This document shows, piece by piece, positions 2,419 through 13,592 of a stretch of DNA of 13,592 nucleotides. The notes beneath the pieces are model-generated. The model ran no database searches, had not been told where the DNA came from, and worked only from the letters and a program-made list of their open reading frames with translations. A program made the translations under genes and the position numbers. Positions within the stretch are counted from its first letter, which is position 1; every line of letters begins with the position of its first letter. Source of the DNA: an uncultured Leptotrichia sp. (GTDB lineage: Bacteria > Fusobacteriota > Fusobacteriia > Fusobacteriales > Leptotrichiaceae); assembly GCA_937925095.1 (NCBI GenBank), contig CALEXX010000013.1:1-13592 (forward strand). Direction: 5' to 3'.

Positions 2419-2650
2419 TAAAAAATAAGGAAATAAAATAAATTTTATATTTCTGGTCTATTTGTTACCGACAATACAATTTTTGGGCTTTACTCTATTA
2501 TAATGGGGTTATCTCTTTATATGCTGAATCAGGAAAATCACGGCGGTCAAGACTTAGCACGGATTCTGTACATCATTATAAACATGACTACCACCTGTAC
2601 ACTTTTACAGGCTACCAAAAATTAAGTCGAAACGGTAGACCGGATTTTTT
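2419..2650 (+). ncRNA. Candidate small RNA (about 230 nt) running from the orphan promoter to a terminator-like hairpin with a U-tract; identity unknown
   Basis: Predicted TSS about 7 nt after the -10. The 2500-2645 segment is GC-richer than its surroundings. Hairpin CCTGTA-CACTTT-TACAGG (2595-2612) is followed by stem GGCTACC / GGTAG(A)CC and GGATTTTTT (2611-2650). The only ORF is a 34-codon frame at 2521 with poor SD spacing. Confidence 0.25.
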
Positions 2651-5448: not shown

Positions 5449-6963
5449 ATGAATATATTGTTATGGGGAATATTTTATTTAGTAACTGCCATATTTCTTG
5501 GATATTTCTTTTTTAAGGAAAAGGAAGTCATAGATTTTATAAAGGTGAAGGAAGATCTTCTGCTAAATAAAATTTCACTGGAGGAAAATGAAAAAAATTT
5601 AAAGACGGGAAATATCATTACTGTAGCAGGACTGATAGTAACTGTTATTTTCTTTTTTATTTCAGACAGAACGCCTGATGCCAATGTTGGAATAAAAATA
5701 ATAGGTATTTATGCTATGTTTATATTGAATACAGTATTCTTTCTGCTTCGTGCACAGCATGAATGGATATTTATGGGAAATATAGTAATGCTTATACTTG
5801 GCCGTCTGATGTTTAATATAATGGATGTAAAATTTTATATATTTTTAGTAATAAATGCAATATTAGCTTTAGCTCTAATTTTCCTATTTAGACGTCCTAC
5901 CAAAGAGGAAATTACAGAGAGAACTCTTCTGGAGGAAATAAAGGAAGATAAAAAAAATGCCGATAAAAAGATTACGATAGAAAATCTTGAGGAAAAAATA
6001 GACATTGAAAAGAAACGTAGAAGCAGTTTTGGAAAAGCTCTTCACAGGGTTGACATGTCGGTAATGGCAGTAGTGCTTGTACTTCTTATACAGACTTTCT
6101 ATATTGGGAATTATGTAATTCCTACAGGATCAATGGAAGAAACAATAAAGATAAAAGACAGAGTTTTTGCAAATATGGTAAAATACAAATTTACATCTCC
6201 AAAGGTAAATGATATTGTGGCATTTAAAGAACCTATGACAAATAAGCTTATGTTCACAAAAAGATTGGTAGGAGTGGCGGGTCAGACTTTACAGATTAAA
6301 GATATACAGGCAATGGATTTAACAGACCCTTCAACAGTGGATAACGCAGGAAATGTCAGAGTTTCAAATGTTGATGCAGGAAATATTTATTTAGATGATA
6401 AAAAAGCAGAAAAATTGAACAGACCTTACACTAAAGATGGTTTTTTATTAGACAGTAAGATATATATTCCTAAAAAAGGTGATAAAGTAAAAATTGATAA
6501 AATAGTTATAATTCCTAAAGGAAAAGCAAGAATAGAAGGAACAGATAACTTTATTACAGGAACTGACTGGTCAGGATATGGAGATGGAAGTTACAAATTT
6601 TTAACTCCGGAGGAATTTTTAGCTAGAATAGGTACAGATAAAGGGTTTAAGGATATAGTAGGAAACGAAGACCGTTATGAGGAAGGTAATCCAAAATACG
6701 ATGTATACTATACATTCTTTCTTAAAGTGGAAGGAAGAGATGAACTGGTACTTCCTATAATGGACTTTAAATATGATGATGCCCTGTTCCTGAAACTGTT
6801 AAAGGGAGAAAGTTTGACTCTTAATAAGAACTATTATATCGCTATGGGAGATAACACTACAAACAGTCTTGATTCAAGGTTTTTCGGATATGTTGCAGAA
6901 GATAGAATAAAAGGAAAGTTGCTGTTAAGATGGTGGCCGTTAAACAGATTGGGATTAATATAA
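5449..6963 (+). CDS. lepB: Signal peptidase I (LepB family) with an unusual N-terminal extension of about 190 aa and five transmembrane helices (504 aa)
   Basis: Box B VIPTGSME (catalytic Ser), box D TKRLVGVAGQ (catalytic Lys) and box E GDNTTNSLDSRFFGYV are all present. Five predicted TM helices and a charged linker precede the canonical membrane anchor MAVVLVLLIQTF. The upstream 200 codons carry no in-frame stop despite AT-rich DNA. Confidence 0.8.
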   Translation: MNILLWGIFYLVTAIFLGYFFFKEKEVIDFIKVKEDLLLNKISLEENEKNLKTGNIITVAGLIVTVIFFFISDRTPDANVGIKIIGIYAMFILNTVFFLLRAQHEWIFMGNIVMLILGRLMFNIMDVKFYIFLVINAILALALIFLFRRPTKEEITERTLLEEIKEDKKNADKKITIENLEEKIDIEKKRRSSFGKALHRVDMSVMAVVLVLLIQTFYIGNYVIPTGSMEETIKIKDRVFANMVKYKFTSPKVNDIVAFKEPMTNKLMFTKRLVGVAGQTLQIKDIQAMDLTDPSTVDNAGNVRVSNVDAGNIYLDDKKAEKLNRPYTKDGFLLDSKIYIPKKGDKVKIDKIVIIPKGKARIEGTDNFITGTDWSGYGDGSYKFLTPEEFLARIGTDKGFKDIVGNEDRYEEGNPKYDVYYTFFLKVEGRDELVLPIMDFKYDDALFLKLLKGESLTLNKNYYIAMGDNTTNSLDSRFFGYVAEDRIKGKLLLRWWPLNRLGLI

Positions 6964-7499: not shown

Positions 7500-10151
7500 A
7501 TGAAAAAAGAACTGGATAAAGTTTATTCGCCAACTGAAATCGAAGACAAGTGGTATAAAATATGGGAAGAAAATGGATACTTTAGTGCACAGCATAATGA
7601 CGAGAAGCCAGGTTACTCAATAGTAATCCCGCCTCCTAACGTAACAGGGATACTTCACATGGGTCATATGCTGGATAATACTATTCAGGATGCAATAATA
7701 AGATATAAAAGAATGAGTGGATTTGATACTTTGTGGGTTCCCGGAATGGATCATGCAGGAATTGCAACTCAGAATAAAGTTGAGAGAATGCTGAAGGAAC
7801 AGGGAACTTCAAAGGAAGAAATCGGAAGAGATGAATTCCTGAAAAAAACATGGGAATGGAAGGAAAAACACGGCGGACTTATAACTAAACAGTTGAGAAA
7901 ACTTGGAGTTTCTCCTGACTGGTCAAGAGAAAGATTTACAATGGATGAAGGGCTTTCGAGAGCTGTAAAGGAAGTATTTATAAAACTTTACAATGATGGT
8001 CTTATTTATAGAGGAGAATACATTGTAAACTGGTGTCCACATGATAAGACTGCCCTTGCAGATGACGAAGTAAACCACTTTGAAAAAAATGGAAAAATAT
8101 GGGAAATAAAATATCCTATAAAAGACAGTGATGGATATGTTGTAATTGCTACAACAAGACCTGAAACAATGCTGGGAGATACAGGAGTAGCTGTAAATCC
8201 TAACGACGAAAGATATAAGGATTTAATAGGAAAAAAGGTAATACTGCCATTAATGGACAGGGAAATACCTGTAGTTGCTGATGAGTATGTAGATATGGAA
8301 TTTGGAACAGGAGTAGTTAAAATGACGCCTTCCCACGATCCTAACGACTTTGAGGTGGCAAAAAGAACTGGACTTCCTTTCCTGAATATATTTACAGAAG
8401 ATGCAAAAGTAAATGAAAATGGTGGGAAGTATTGTGGGCTTGAAAGATTTGAAGCAAGAAAGGCTATACTGAAAGACCTTGAGGAACAGGGATACCTTGT
8501 AGGAGTGAAGGAACATAAAAATGCTGTTGGACACTGTTACAGATGTGACTCAGTAATTGAGCCAAGAGTTTCTACACAATGGTTTGTAAAAATGAAGCCT
8601 CTTGCTGAAAGAGCTCTAGAAGTAGTAAAAAATGGTAAAATACAGATAACTCCAAAAAGATGGGAAAAAGTGTACTATAACTGGCTTGAAAATATAAGGG
8701 ACTGGACAATTTCCAGACAGATCTGGTGGGGACACAGAATACCTGCCTATTATGCGGAAGACGGTTCAATATTTGTAGCTAGGGATTTAGAAGAAGCAAA
8801 GGCTCAGGCAAGGGAAAAATTTGGGAAAGATGTTCCTTTAAGAGAAGAAACAGATGTACTTGATACATGGTTTTCATCAGCTTTATGGCCTTTCTCCACA
8901 ATGGGATGGCCTGATAAGACAAAGGATCTTGAAAAATTCTTCCCGACAAATGTACTTGTAACAGGAGCAGATATACTGTTCTTCTGGGTAGCAAGAATGG
9001 TGATGATGAGTTTATATATAAATGATGAGATACCATTTGACTATGTATATTTACATGGTCTTATAAGAGATGAACAGGGAAGAAAAATGAGTAAATCCCT
9101 AGGAAACTCACCTGATCCTCTAGATCTTATAGATAAGTACGGAGCTGATGCAATAAGATTCAGTTTCCTTTACAATACATCACAGGGACAGGATATACAT
9201 TTCTCAGAAAAACTTCTTGAAATGGGATCAGCTTTTGCAAATAAAGTATGGAATGCATCGAGATTTGTATTGTCTAACCTTGAAGATTTTGACGACAAAG
9301 TGTCTGTAATGGATCTGGAATTCAAGCTGGAAGACAGATGGATACTGTCGAAACTTCAGTCAGCATCAAAATCTATAAATGAAAGCATGGAAAAATACGA
9401 GCTAGACAGTGCGGCAAAAATAGCCTATGAATTTTTCAGGGGAGATTTCTGTGACTGGTATGTGGAAATTGCTAAAACGAGAGTTTATGGTGGAGAAGGT
9501 ACAGATAAAGCAACTGCCCAGTGGGTATTGAAACATGTGCTGGATAATGGTCTGAAAATGCTTCATCCATTTATGCCATTTATTACAGAAGAAATATGGC
9601 AGAAACTTGAAATAGAAGAGCCTACTATAATGCTTTCAGATTTCCCTAAGGAAGACAAGGCATTAGTAAGTGTTGAATCAGAAAAGGAATTTGACTATTT
9701 GAAGGAAGTAGTAACAGCTGTAAGAAATATAAGAGGAGAAAACAATGTTTCACCTTCAAAGAAAATTGAAGTAATATTCAAGACTGTAAATGAAGCTGAA
9801 AAGAAAATACTGGAGCACAATCCTAAGATTTTAGATAAGCTTGCAAATGTTGAAAAATATGACTTCACACCTAATATTGAAATTCCTGAACTTGTAGGAT
9901 TCAGACTAGTTGAAACTACTGAAATATATGTTCCGCTTGCTGATCTTATAGACAAGGAAAAGGAAATTGCAAAACTTGAAAAGGATATAGAAAAAACTCA
10001 GAAGGAACTGGATAAGGTTTTAGGAAAGCTTTCAAATGAAGCGTTTTTAGCGAAAGCACCTCAAGCTGTTGTTGACAAGGAAAATGCAATTAAGGAAGAA
10101 CTTGAAACTAAAATTGCAAAATTCAGGGAATCGATAAACCTGTATAAATAA
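7500..10151 (+). CDS. valS: Valine--tRNA ligase (valyl-tRNA synthetase)
   Basis: Class I HIGH motif (PPPNVTGILHMGHML), KMSKS motif (GRKMSKSLGN), the typical N-terminus (…YSPTEIEDKWYKIWEENGYF), a C-terminal coiled-coil region and a length of 883 aa. Confidence 0.95.
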   Translation: MKKELDKVYSPTEIEDKWYKIWEENGYFSAQHNDEKPGYSIVIPPPNVTGILHMGHMLDNTIQDAIIRYKRMSGFDTLWVPGMDHAGIATQNKVERMLKEQGTSKEEIGRDEFLKKTWEWKEKHGGLITKQLRKLGVSPDWSRERFTMDEGLSRAVKEVFIKLYNDGLIYRGEYIVNWCPHDKTALADDEVNHFEKNGKIWEIKYPIKDSDGYVVIATTRPETMLGDTGVAVNPNDERYKDLIGKKVILPLMDREIPVVADEYVDMEFGTGVVKMTPSHDPNDFEVAKRTGLPFLNIFTEDAKVNENGGKYCGLERFEARKAILKDLEEQGYLVGVKEHKNAVGHCYRCDSVIEPRVSTQWFVKMKPLAERALEVVKNGKIQITPKRWEKVYYNWLENIRDWTISRQIWWGHRIPAYYAEDGSIFVARDLEEAKAQAREKFGKDVPLREETDVLDTWFSSALWPFSTMGWPDKTKDLEKFFPTNVLVTGADILFFWVARMVMMSLYINDEIPFDYVYLHGLIRDEQGRKMSKSLGNSPDPLDLIDKYGADAIRFSFLYNTSQGQDIHFSEKLLEMGSAFANKVWNASRFVLSNLEDFDDKVSVMDLEFKLEDRWILSKLQSASKSINESMEKYELDSAAKIAYEFFRGDFCDWYVEIAKTRVYGGEGTDKATAQWVLKHVLDNGLKMLHPFMPFITEEIWQKLEIEEPTIMLSDFPKEDKALVSVESEKEFDYLKEVVTAVRNIRGENNVSPSKKIEVIFKTVNEAEKKILEHNPKILDKLANVEKYDFTPNIEIPELVGFRLVETTEIYVPLADLIDKEKEIAKLEKDIEKTQKELDKVLGKLSNEAFLAKAPQAVVDKENAIKEELETKIAKFRESINLYK

Positions 10152-12643: not shown

Positions 12644-12847
12644 ATGTTAGAAAATTTACTGGTAATAATTTTAGTAGTTTTAGCTATAATTATGATAGCT
12701 GTTATCCTGTTACAGCCTGACAGAAGTCAGGGACTGGCTAAAAATGCCAATATAGTAGACGAGGAAAAAGAAGGAATTGAAAAGTTTACTGAATGGATAG
12801 CAACAGCATTTCTAGTTGTGGCGATACTGTTTCAGATAATAAGATAA
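12644..12847 (+). CDS. secG: Preprotein translocase subunit SecG
   Basis: 67-aa two-TM protein with the conserved SecG N-terminus (…IIMIAVILLQPDRSQGL…) and SD AGGAGGA. It lies directly downstream of tpiA, as in several phyla. Confidence 0.75.
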   Translation: MLENLLVIILVVLAIIMIAVILLQPDRSQGLAKNANIVDEEKEGIEKFTEWIATAFLVVAILFQIIR

Positions 12848-12881
12848 AAACTATTATAAATTAAATTCATGGAGGTAAAGT

Positions 12882-13097
12882 ATGAAAATGAAAGAACTAG
12901 AAAAAGATGAATTATTAAGAGTTGATGGAGGTCGTGGATTACGTGAATTTATAAGGGAAATTTCAGGTGGAGCAGTTTATGATGAAAGAGATAGATTAAG
13001 AGAGAGAGTTAAAGAGTTAGAAAGAAGAATTAGAGTAGATGACAGAGAAATTCATGAAAGAGACAGAGGGAAATCTGGATTACGTAGAGCAAGATAA
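12882..13097 (+). CDS. Small secreted-peptide precursor candidate (71 aa): double-glycine-type leader followed by a highly charged Arg/Glu/Asp-rich 54-aa core
   Basis: Strong SD GGAGGT (12872-12877) with a 5-nt spacer to the ATG at 12882. Residues 1-17, MKMKELEKDELLRVDGG, fit the GG-leader consensus: hydrophobic at -4, -7, -12 and -15, Glu at -8, Gly-Gly at -2/-1 (codons 12927-12932). The core has about 18 Arg/Lys and 13 Asp/Glu and very few hydrophobic residues. A clean terminator follows. The coding strand is strongly purine-rich. Confidence 0.5.
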   Translation: MKMKELEKDELLRVDGGRGLREFIREISGGAVYDERDRLRERVKELERRIRVDDREIHERDRGKSGLRRAR

Positions 13098-13109
13098 GAT
13101 GGAGAATGT

Positions 13110-13153
13110 ACTGCACCAAAATTTTAGATATAAAATTAAAGGTGCAGTTTTTC
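13110..13153 (+). terminator. Rho-independent terminator after the small peptide gene
   Basis: 8-bp stem ACTGCACC (13110-13117) / GGTGCAGT (13141-13148) with an AT-rich 23-nt loop, followed by TTTTTCT. Confidence 0.55.
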
Positions 13154-13219
13154 TATGAAATTGATTAGGAAGATAAAATCAAAATAAATGAAAAGGATTG
13201 AAAGGTAAAATTTAAAATT

Positions 13220-13592
13220 ATGAGAAGATATAAAAATGTATATTTATTTTTCAATTTATTTAGTATAGAGGTATTGCTGTTCATTATCTTCTTTTATAAT
13301 AGAAAAATGGATATGGTATATGTAAATGACGAATTTGTTTCCTATCTGTTTGAGGGAATTTATTTATCTCTAACTATATTTATTACGGAGGAAATGATTT
13401 TTAGGGAAGGATTTTTTATTATTCTAAAAAATAAAATGAAATATTACAATGTAATACAGGCAATTCTGTTTTCGATTTTTCACTTGAATTTTATTTATTT
13501 CTATGCAATAAAAAATATTTTTCTGAGTATTTTATACAGTTTTATTACAGGAATGATATATGGAAATATCAGGAAAAATTCTAAAAATGTAG
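13220..13592 (+). CDS. CPBP-family (CAAX protease / bacteriocin self-immunity, Abi-like) intramembrane metalloprotease, 5' part; continues beyond the window end
   Basis: Manually translated from the ATG at 13220 (in-frame TGA at 13199-13201 just upstream). No stop occurs through 13592, which is why it is missing from the ORF track. It encodes hydrophobic helices plus motif 1 EEMIFR (EExxxR) and motif 2 FSIFH (FxxxH) at the spacing typical of CPBP/Abi proteins. Motif 3 (HxxxN/D) is not resolved in the window. Confidence 0.55.
   Translation, partial: MRRYKNVYLFFNLFSIEVLLFIIFFYNRKMDMVYVNDEFVSYLFEGIYLSLTIFITEEMIFREGFFIILKNKMKYYNVIQAILFSIFHLNFIYFYAIKNIFLSILYSFITGMIYGNIRKNSKNV

What the first reader, a model, noticed from the sequence alone, without database searches (positions are those of the whole stretch)
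13220..13592. Unannotated CPBP/Abi-type membrane protease ORF running off the window, the likely immunity partner of the upstream peptide
The supplied ORF track omits this frame because it has no stop inside the window. Manual translation from 13220 gives more than 124 codons without a stop. It contains EEMIFR (motif 1, EExxxR) and FSIFH (motif 2, FxxxH) embedded in hydrophobic helices, which is diagnostic of the CPBP (CAAX protease and bacteriocin-processing) family. Members of this family are frequently encoded next to bacteriocin structural genes as immunity proteins. Its position directly after the GG-leader peptide and terminator is consistent with a toxin/immunity or signal/receptor pair. 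The N-terminal region has fewer helices than usual before motif 1, and the SD is weak (AAAGG, 14-nt spacer), so the exact start is uncertain.
Basis: partly seen in the sequence, partly recalled or inferred. Interest (0 to 1): 0.6.

Follow-up and report, generated by a model that had tools for sequence, protein, structure and literature searches.

The report
Motif-3-less CPBP gene in peptide-export island
The open reading frame is a real CPBP/Abi-family membrane protein gene at the start of a small secreted-peptide island in an oral Leptotrichia, but near-identical full-length copies lack the third catalytic motif, so it is a plausible immunity or helper subunit and probably not an active protease.

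Summary
Frame 13220-13592 (+) has 124 codons without a stop and carries EEMIFR and FSIFH. It matches Pfam PF02517 above the curated cut-off (35.9 bits, E 9.5e-9).

Contigs 98.7-99.4% identical to the window give a full length of 187 aa. There, motif 3 (HxxxN) reads R-I-A-S-F. Arg replaces His only in this clade, 6 of 126 relatives, while motifs 1 and 2 are invariant.

The gene is the first of a tightly linked CPBP pair; the second, of 191-195 aa, has all three motifs. Complete islands lie between secG and addB. They hold double-glycine (GG) leader peptides, CPBP pairs, truncated C39 fragments at duplication junctions, a peptide-cleaving ABC exporter (TIGR01193) and a HlyD-type adaptor.

The bacteriocin-like context is therefore real. 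The CPBP pairs are the only candidate immunity genes in the island.

Points against a simple immunity reading:
- The same CPBP pair also occurs without any peptide at two other chromosomal sites.
- The peptide cores are very hydrophilic, unlike known class II bacteriocins.
- No function was tested.

Verdict: family assignment supported; immunity role plausible but unproven, about 0.45. It is a variant of a known kind and of moderate interest.

The parts
12644..12847 (+). secG, the last core-genome gene before the island.
   Evidence: Pfam SecG and TIGR00810 are above their cut-offs. Homology to island-free genomes L015-L022 ends at window 12850.
12848..13592 (.). Left end of an accessory island inserted between secG and addB. 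The window stops inside its second gene.
   Evidence: In L015-L022, secG is followed directly by addB/addA. In L007, L008 and L023-L027, peptide, CPBP and exporter genes lie between them. The repeated module starts at about 12845. GC is 22% here against 32% for the whole window.
12882..13097 (+). Gene for a 71-aa peptide with a double-glycine leader (MKMKELEKDELLRVDGG) and a 54-aa very hydrophilic core.
   Evidence: ORF. The leader has L-12, E-8, L-7, V-4, G-2 and G-1, read from the sequence. There is a weak leader-only hit to TIGR03949 (E 0.065). Exact copies sit on 12 contigs, always followed by the CPBP gene where the contig is long enough.
13110..13153 (+). Intrinsic-terminator-like hairpin (ACTGCACC...GGTGCAGT) followed by TTTTT, between the peptide gene and the CPBP gene.
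   Evidence: Fold of 13098-13165 gives dG -21.6 kcal/mol and z -5.7; 0 of 200 shuffles fold as well. A different hairpin with a T-run sits at the same place after pep68 in L024.
13200..13205 (+). SD-like GAAAGG, 14 nt upstream of the ATG.
   Evidence: Read. It is conserved as GAAAGG or GGAAGG at the same distance in L008, L024 and the locus-2 copies.
13220..13592 (+). The 5' 124 codons of the CPBP/Abi-family gene ('CPBP187'). The expected full length is 186-187 codons.
   Evidence: L008:3347-3910 is the 187-aa counterpart on a contig 98.7% identical over 996 nt. The full-length orthologue scores 39.6 bits against PF02517.
13388..13405 (+). Motif 1, EEMIFR (EExxxR).
   Evidence: E, E and R are invariant in 126 of 126 relatives.
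13469..13483 (+). Motif 2, FSIFH (FxxxH).
   Evidence: F and H are invariant in 126 of 126 relatives.

Best explanation
The ORF is the 5' two-thirds of a 187-aa, six-helix inner-membrane protein of the CPBP/Abi (Rce1-like, PF02517) family. It is the first gene of a tightly linked pair of CPBP paralogues.

The pair lies inside a roughly 7.7-kb accessory island inserted between secG and addB in some oral Leptotrichia strains. The island encodes:
- GG-leader peptides.
- CPBP pairs.
- A C39-peptidase ABC exporter (PCAT).
- A HlyD-type adaptor.

Most likely mechanism (inferred, not shown): the PCAT cuts the leader after GG and exports the peptides together with the adaptor. The CPBP pair in the inner membrane protects the producer, or carriers of orphan pairs, from the exported peptides.

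CPBP187 has lost the His/Asn oxyanion-hole motif. It is therefore probably not a protease itself. It more likely acts as a non-catalytic partner, in binding or specificity, of the adjacent complete CPBP (191-195 aa).

Shown here: family membership, gene order, loss of motif 3, purifying selection and island architecture. Inferred: export, immunity and partnership.
For: Family: PF02517 is above the cut-off for both the fragment and the full-length orthologue, and motifs 1 and 2 are invariant.

Full length and motif 3: P0001-P0007 and L007, L008, L010, L024, L044 and L048 all read ...CI(M/I)LRIASF..., with Arg where 120 of 126 relatives have His. In Rce1, H227 and N231 form the oxyanion hole (PMC5874806).

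Context:
- In 16 of 16 contigs that extend past a peptide gene, CPBP187 is the next gene.
- Complete islands L023-L027 read secG, pep62, pep64, CPBP, CPBP, C39 fragment, pep68, CPBP187, CPBP191, PCAT, adaptor, addB.
- The PCAT scores 647 bits against TIGR01193, above the cut-off of 524, and keeps the catalytic Cys motif. The adaptor is HlyD-type.
- No other candidate immunity gene, kinase or regulator lies in the island.

Selection, L008 against L024:
- CPBP187 is 70.6% identical, with dN/dS 0.28.
- The peptide is 63% identical.
- The partner CPBP is 78.5% identical.
- The exporter N-terminus is 99% identical, and TpiA and Band7 are 99-100% identical.
The peptide and CPBP genes are thus the fast-evolving part of the island yet remain under constraint.

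Coupling: the two CPBP genes are 0-11 nt apart or overlap at all three loci.

Precedent: the Abi/CPBP proteins SkkI, PlnI and PlnL are bacteriocin immunity proteins (PMC8538875; PMC9298176). Orphan CPBP pairs without peptides fit the known pattern of orphan immunity genes.
Against: - No function was tested.
- The window's own 3' end is unseen.
- The peptide cores are 34-57% charged, have GRAVY -1.4 to -1.9 and contain no hydrophobic segment. This is unlike membrane-active class II bacteriocins, so toxicity is unproven.
- A peptide variant (P0018) sits next to an almost unchanged CPBP187 allele, so there is no fine-scale co-variation.
- A strong hairpin separates the peptide gene from the CPBP gene.
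- From my own knowledge of Kjos et al. 2010 (paper not held), SkkI immunity required the conserved motifs. A motif-3-less protein would then be a poor stand-alone immunity protease.
- CPBP proteins near bacteriocin loci can have other roles, as SilX, SagE, MroQ, LsrS, SpdC and Abx1 show.
- At locus 2, CPBP187 is often frameshifted or fused while its partner stays intact.
Confidence: 0.45

Rival explanations
1. Maturation or export helper. The CPBP pair processes the peptides, for example by trimming the conserved C-terminal tail or making a second cut, or it assists their export. SagE, MroQ and SilX act this way. On this reading it does not protect the cell.
For: CPBP proteins with processing roles are documented (PMC9298176). 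All four peptide paralogues share a conserved C-terminal (D/E)REIHxxDRGKSG(L/S)RRxR tail that could be a recognition or cleavage element. The genes lie between the peptides and the exporter.
Against: - CPBP187 lacks the motif-3 His and Asn.
- The PCAT already carries a catalytic C39 domain for leader removal.
- The same or closely related pairs occur at two loci with no peptide and no exporter. That is hard to explain for a dedicated maturase.
Confidence: 0.2
2. A non-catalytic membrane scaffold or regulator, or a general envelope function, unrelated to the neighbouring peptide. SpdC and Abx1 are examples; they act through histidine kinases without needing the catalytic motifs. The adjacency would then be a by-product of modular duplication.
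For: Tandem CPBP pairs lie next to housekeeping genes at lysS (locus 2) and PFOR/NUDIX (locus 3). The locus-3 pair is 97% and 86% identical to the island's module-A pair. The loss of motif 3 resembles SpdC-type proteins.
Against: There is no kinase or regulator in the island. Every peptide gene or gene group (pep62+pep64, pep68, pep71) is followed by a CPBP pair. The pair diverges as fast as the peptide while the flanking genes are nearly identical. That pattern is typical of toxin/immunity cassettes.
Confidence: 0.2
3. A decaying, functionless paralogue. It lost its catalytic motif and survives only by linkage to the intact CPBP next to it.
For: - Motif 3 is lost.
- Locus 2 carries frameshifted (L003-L006), insertion-bearing (L002) and deletion-fused (L001/P0010) alleles.
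- Many truncated database entries exist (P0009, P0011-P0016).
- AlphaFold gives only low-confidence models.
Against: - dN/dS is 0.28 across orthologues only 71% identical, with E58, E59, R63, F85 and H89 fully kept.
- All complete island copies seen are intact at 187 aa, except L045, where the called ORF is 167 aa because of a 5' truncation.
- Intact copies also occur at locus 2 (L036, L037). Cluster P0002 has 652 member sequences.
- The start region and SD are conserved.
Confidence: 0.1

Closest known systems
Abi/CPBP bacteriocin immunity proteins of Firmicutes (SkkI for sakacin 23K, PlnI for plantaricin EF, PlnL for plantaricin JK).
   Same: Both belong to PF02517. Both are small multi-pass membrane proteins with EExxxR and FxxxH, encoded next to GG-leader peptide genes in a locus with a C39 ABC exporter.
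   Different: - The motif-3 His and Asn are replaced by Arg and Phe.
- The protein occurs as a coupled pair with a complete paralogue.
- The host is a diderm (Fusobacteriota), with a HlyD-type adaptor.
- The cargo peptides are extremely hydrophilic.
- The sequence is very remote: phmmer finds only 10 representatives among 1.84 billion, and there is no NCBIfam hit.
- Immunity was not tested.
Class II microcin systems of Gram-negative bacteria (for example MccV: cvaC, cvi, cvaA, cvaB).
   Same: Both have a GG-leader precursor plus a PCAT plus a HlyD-family adaptor in a diderm. In both, the producer needs an inner-membrane immunity function (microcin background in PMC12219008).
   Different: Known microcin immunity proteins are small dedicated proteins and are not CPBPs (my own knowledge). 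The cargo here is 34-57% charged, not Gly/Ala-rich or hydrophobic. The 2025 microcin survey text does not mention Fusobacteriota, Leptotrichia or CAAX/CPBP.
CPBP proteins that act without catalytic motifs (S. aureus SpdC; GBS Abx1).
   Same: Both are CPBP-fold membrane proteins whose function does not depend on proteolysis. SpdC lacks the conserved catalytic motifs (PMC9298176).
   Different: CPBP187 keeps motifs 1 and 2 strictly and loses only motif 3. No histidine kinase lies nearby.
CPBP maturation proteases (SagE, MroQ, SilX).
   Same: All are CPBPs encoded in or beside secreted-peptide loci.
   Different: Those proteins depend on intact catalytic motifs, and CPBP187 lacks motif 3. Leader removal here is covered by the C39 domain of the PCAT.

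Membership tests
CPBP / Abi / Rce1-like (Pfam PF02517) | Significant match to the family profile above the curated cut-off. | tested here: met
   The window fragment scores 35.9 bits against a cut-off of 22.4, E 9.5e-9. The 187-aa orthologue scores 39.6 bits.
CPBP / Abi / Rce1-like (Pfam PF02517) | Motif 1, EExxxR. | tested here: met
   EEMIFR at aa 57-62. It is invariant in 126 of 126 relatives.
CPBP / Abi / Rce1-like (Pfam PF02517) | Motif 2, FxxxH. | tested here: met
   FSIFH at aa 84-88. It is invariant in 126 of 126 relatives.
CPBP / Abi / Rce1-like (Pfam PF02517) | Motif 3, HxxxN/D (the oxyanion hole; H227/N231 in MmRce1). | tested here: not met
   This region lies beyond the window. In the orthologues on contigs 98.7-99.4% identical it reads L-R-I-A-S-F. 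Arg appears in 6 of 6 clade members and His in the other 120 of 126. There is no later His. The role of the motif is given in PMC5874806.
CPBP / Abi / Rce1-like (Pfam PF02517) | Multi-pass helical membrane protein. | tested here: met
   Both AlphaFold models show six long helices, though the models are low-confidence. A hydropathy scan finds 5 strongly hydrophobic 17-mers.
CPBP / Abi / Rce1-like (Pfam PF02517) | Rce1-like three-dimensional fold. | tested here: inconclusive
   The models reach pLDDT 41 and 49 and pTM 0.25-0.29. Foldseek against the PDB gives no match. A profile search of PDB sequences gives no match.
CPBP / Abi / Rce1-like (Pfam PF02517) | Intramembrane proteolytic activity. 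| not testable with these tools
   This needs biochemistry. The loss of motif 3 argues against activity.
Abi-type bacteriocin immunity protein | Encoded beside a GG-leader peptide gene, in a locus with a dedicated C39 ABC exporter. | tested here: met
   The peptide gene lies 122 nt upstream in the window. The PCAT (TIGR01193, 647 bits) and the adaptor are present in complete islands L023-L027. They are not visible inside the window itself.
Abi-type bacteriocin immunity protein | Confers protection against the cognate peptide. | not testable with these tools
   An experiment is required.
Abi-type bacteriocin immunity protein | The cognate peptide is antimicrobial. | not testable with these tools
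   The core is hydrophilic, net +5, with no hydrophobic segment. It matches no known bacteriocin family beyond the leader.
Abi-type bacteriocin immunity protein | Strict linkage to the peptide. | tested here: inconclusive
   The peptide is followed by CPBP187 in 16 of 16 informative contigs. However, CPBP187 and its partner also occur with no peptide at locus 2.
Class II microcin system | GG-leader precursor exported by a PCAT plus a HlyD-family adaptor in a diderm. | tested here: met
   The leader consensus was read from the sequence. The PCAT and adaptor are in L024. No outer-membrane component was identified.
Class II microcin system | A small, largely hydrophobic or Gly-rich mature toxin with a small dedicated immunity protein. 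| tested here: not met
   The cores are 34-57% charged with GRAVY -1.4 to -1.9. The island has no small immunity ORF, only CPBPs.

The most novel reading that the evidence does not exclude
The island encodes an undescribed family of strongly hydrophilic, Arg/Glu-rich GG-leader peptides, exported by a PCAT and adaptor in a Fusobacteriota diderm. Only four peptide clusters exist among 5.8 billion proteins. Self-protection or handling of these peptides would rely on a heteromeric CPBP pair. In that pair, CPBP187 would be a catalytically dead pseudo-protease that supplies specificity to its active partner. This would be a new kind of immunity module and possibly a new, non-membrane-active mode of action for a class II-type peptide.
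Probability: 0.2. Interest if true: 0.65.

Novelty: new variant of a known kind. Interest (0 to 1): 0.4.

Why it matters
CPBP/Abi genes beside bacteriocin genes are routinely annotated as 'immunity' without evidence. This case shows why the third motif and the gene neighbourhood need checking. The flagged gene is probably a pseudo-protease paired with an active paralogue.

The locus appears to be the first GG-leader peptide export island described for oral Leptotrichia, as far as the held literature shows. Its cargo looks unlike known bacteriocins. If the peptides are active, they could inform competition within the oral microbiome. They would also give a tractable system for asking how CPBP proteins confer immunity, a mechanism that remains unresolved.

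Tried and rejected
- Species-representative genomes, first scan. Searching with the 124-aa fragment found no relative.
- Species-representative genomes, second scan. Searching with a family alignment found only remote CPBPs (23-40% identity) in Firmicutes and other MAGs. No named reference genome carries this gene.
- Structure. Two AlphaFold runs, with 7-sequence and 126-sequence alignments, gave pLDDT 41 and 49. Foldseek against the PDB returned nothing. A PDB sequence-profile search returned nothing. All of this is uninformative, not negative evidence.
- Promoter scan. No plus-strand promoter was found between the terminator and the ATG. The region is too AT-rich to judge. Locus-2 copies have a perfect TATAAT there.
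- Fine-scale peptide/CPBP co-variation. The P0018 peptide variant has practically the same CPBP187 allele, so this test gives no support.
- 'CPBP187 is intact only when linked to a peptide'. I considered this and rejected it after finding intact locus-2 copies in L036 and L037.
- A second GG at aa 29-30 of the peptide as an alternative cleavage site. Rejected, because it is not conserved in P0018.
- Antisense ORFs over the CPBP gene (for example L008 3625-3810, minus strand). I regard these as by-products of AT-rich hydrophobic coding sequence.
- Kjos et al. 2010 could not be read because it is not held.

Full report
**Observation**

The frame starting at 13220 (+) translates into 124 codons without a stop and runs off the window. 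An in-frame TGA lies at 13199-13201, so 13220 is the first ATG. EEMIFR (aa 57-62) and FSIFH (aa 84-88) are present.

With the local composition (22% GC), about one codon in ten would be a stop. A 124-codon open frame then has a chance of about 3e-6, and no other frame of this stretch is open.

Pfam PF02517 (Rce1-like, the CPBP/Abi family) matches at 35.9 bits against a curated cut-off of 22.4 (E 9.5e-9). The observation and the family assignment are confirmed.

**Where the window comes from**

The upstream genes are housekeeping: asparaginase, rplS, S26 signal peptidase, GNAT, valS, NfeD/Band7, tpiA and secG.
- SecG is identical to that of CP012410.1, and the window is 90.7% identical to that genome over 8.2 kb.
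- CP012410 is listed among the genomes of unnamed oral Leptotrichia taxa (PMC5646626).
- The closest contigs come from human oral metagenomes: L008 at 99.4% and L007 at 99.0%.

The window is therefore from an oral Leptotrichia that is a different species from CP012410.

**Full length and motif 3**

The window ends inside the gene, so I used near-identical contigs. L008 is 98.7% identical over the last 996 nt and reads straight through the window's last bases. The ORF there is 187 aa, as it is in L007, L010, L024, L044 and L048 and in database clusters P0002-P0007.

After ...GNIRKNSKNV, the sequence continues EVCIMLRIASFLSK.... Aligned with its relatives, the Arg stands exactly where the others have the motif-3 His. 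The residue four positions on, where Asn is expected, is Phe.
- In a 126-sequence family alignment, E58, E59, R63, F85 and H89 are invariant.
- The motif-3 His is present in 120 sequences.
- It is Arg only in the six members of this clade.
- No other His follows.

In Rce1 these two residues (H227, N231) form the oxyanion hole (PMC5874806). The protein is thus a CPBP homologue that has most likely lost proteolytic competence.

It is also an isolated lineage. phmmer against 1.84 billion representatives finds only 10 proteins at E <= 1e-3, and half of those are fragments of the protein itself.

**Neighbourhood**

Homology to island-free genomes, where secG is followed by addB/addA, stops at window 12850. 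What follows is an accessory island. Complete copies (L023-L027) read as follows:

secG | pep62, pep64, CPBP152, CPBP194/198, C39 fragment, pep68, CPBP187, CPBP191, PCAT (721 aa), HlyD-type adaptor (373 aa) | addB

- The PCAT matches TIGR01193 (peptide cleavage/export ABC transporter) at 647 bits, above the cut-off of 524, and keeps the Cys motif QNDEKDCGPAC.
- The module [peptide, CPBP, CPBP, 5' end of the PCAT gene] is tandemly duplicated, with a 2,168-bp unit in L008.
- The junctions are marked by 76-113-aa C39 fragments that stop before the catalytic His.
- The window corresponds to the L008 arrangement: secG, pep71, CPBP187, CPBP195, C39 fragment, pep71 and onward.
- These repeats probably explain why assemblies, and the window, break here (inference).
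- The island has 17-27% GC against 31-37% in the flanks.

**The pair**

CPBP187 is always followed, within 0-11 nt, by a second CPBP of 191-195 aa. That protein has all three motifs (AEEVIFR, FALWH, HMLFN) and a much stronger Pfam score, 69 against 40 bits.

The same two-gene design is seen at three sites. It consists of an 'A-type' protein with an insertion after motif 2, then a 'B-type' protein:
- In both island modules.
- At a second site, lysS, a 161-aa gene, CPBP187, CPBP195, then a 321-aa protein.
- At a third site, PFOR, CPBP194, CPBP192, NUDIX.

The third-site pair is 97% and 86% identical to the island's module-A pair. Neither of the other two sites has a peptide gene or an exporter.

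At locus 2, CPBP187 is intact in some contigs (L036, L037). In others it is frameshifted (L003-L006), carries an insertion (L002), or is fused in frame to its partner at the shared KYYNVIQA stretch (L001/P0010). That fusion restores motif 3. The partner gene stays intact where no fusion has occurred.

**Selection**

| Gene product (L008 against L024) | aa identity | dN/dS |
|---|---|---|
| Peptide | 63% | 0.71 |
| CPBP187 | 70.6% | 0.28 |
| Partner CPBP | 78.5% | 0.39 |
| PCAT N-terminus | 99% | not computed |
| TpiA | 100% | not computed |
| Band7 | 99% | not computed |

The peptide and CPBP genes are the hypervariable core of an otherwise conserved locus. CPBP187 is under purifying selection, so it is not simply a dead gene. 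At finer scale, the P0018 peptide variant is linked to an almost unchanged CPBP187, so there is no tight co-variation.

**The peptides**

The leader (MKMKELEKDELLRVDGG) fits the double-glycine consensus at positions -12, -8, -7, -4, -2 and -1. NCBIfam gives only a weak, leader-restricted hit.

The cores have these properties:
- Length of 45-54 aa.
- 34-57% charged residues, with net charge +4 to +6.
- GRAVY of -1.4 to -1.9.
- No Cys and no hydrophobic segment.
- A shared C-terminal (D/E)REIHxxDRGKSG(L/S)RRxR.

Only four clusters of this family exist among 5.8 billion proteins. This is unlike membrane-active class II bacteriocins or known microcins. Whether the peptides are toxins is open.

A strong hairpin plus T-run separates the peptide gene from the CPBP gene. 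A different hairpin occupies the same position in L024. This suggests high peptide expression with attenuated read-through (inference).

**Interpretation**

Evidence for an immunity role:
- Exclusion: the CPBP pairs are the only non-peptide, non-export genes in the island.
- The fast but constrained divergence together with the peptide.
- Peptide-free orphan pairs elsewhere.
- Precedent from SkkI, PlnI and PlnL (PMC8538875).

Evidence against an immunity role:
- The missing motif 3.
- The odd cargo.
- The documented variety of CPBP roles: processing (SagE, MroQ, SilX), receptor (LsrS) and kinase partner (SpdC, Abx1) (PMC9298176).

My best reading (about 0.45) is that the pair is the island's self-protection module. 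In it, CPBP187 is a non-catalytic partner of the complete CPBP. Rivals are a maturation helper (0.2), a peptide-unrelated scaffold (0.2) and a decaying paralogue (0.1).

**Novelty**

This is a variant of a known kind. It is a CPBP/Abi gene in a GG-peptide export locus, but it differs in these respects:
- Motif 3 is degenerate.
- It occurs as a coupled pair.
- The host is a diderm of the Fusobacteriota.
- The cargo family is unusual and essentially undescribed.

The held literature shows no Leptotrichia bacteriocin locus. Interest is moderate.

**What failed**

Structure prediction gave low confidence (pLDDT 41 and 49), so the fold and PDB searches gave no information. The two scans of reference genomes found no close relative.

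Noticed in passing
window 2447-2650 (+): A 6S RNA (Rfam RF00013) scores 48.4 bits, just above the gathering score of 46.4, E 2.7e-7, with a full-length match to the model.
   Followed up: no
window 12882-13097; L007 7524-7712; L024 7420-7608, 7898-8092, 10001-10207: A family of GG-leader peptides (pep71, pep62, pep64, pep68) has extremely hydrophilic Arg/Asp/Glu-rich cores and a shared C-terminal REIHxxDRGKSGLRRxR. Only four clusters exist in a 5.8-billion-protein database, and the target is unknown.
   Followed up: partly
L008 4625-4966; L024 9490-9741; L044 1309-1539 and 3442-3783: Truncated 5' fragments of the PCAT gene encode 76-113 aa. They keep the C39 Cys motif but stop before the catalytic His. 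They mark the junctions of tandemly duplicated [peptide, CPBP, CPBP] modules, with a unit of 2,168 bp in L008.
   Followed up: partly
L001 8001-8561 (P0010): An in-frame deletion joins the N-terminal half of CPBP187 to the C-terminal half of its neighbour at the shared KYYNVIQA stretch. The result is one 186-aa CPBP with all three motifs.
   Followed up: partly
L038-L043 6424-7579: A third chromosomal site (PFOR, CPBP194, CPBP192, NUDIX) carries a widespread tandem CPBP pair. The pair is 97% and 86% identical to the island's module-A pair, with no peptide or exporter nearby.
   Followed up: partly
window 13232-13240: The window's CPBP lacks one codon near the N-terminus, reading MRRYK-NVY where all relatives read MRRYKENIY or MRRYKEKIY.
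   Followed up: no
L037 about 1600-1610, L003 about 7950-7960, against window about 13170-13179: Locus-2 copies have a perfect TATAAT about 45 nt upstream of the CPBP187 start. The island copy in the window has GATAAAAT there. This suggests an own promoter at locus 2 and weaker or read-through expression in the island.
   Followed up: no
window 5449-6963 (+): The S26 signal-peptidase ORF is 504 aa, with two separate S26 stretches. That is unusually long for a type I signal peptidase.
   Followed up: no
L003 9200-14900: Downstream of the locus-2 CPBP pair lies a 321-aa protein with no confident family match. It is followed by a run of small ORFs with no family hits, including one DUF6966. This looks like a variable cassette region.
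   Followed up: no
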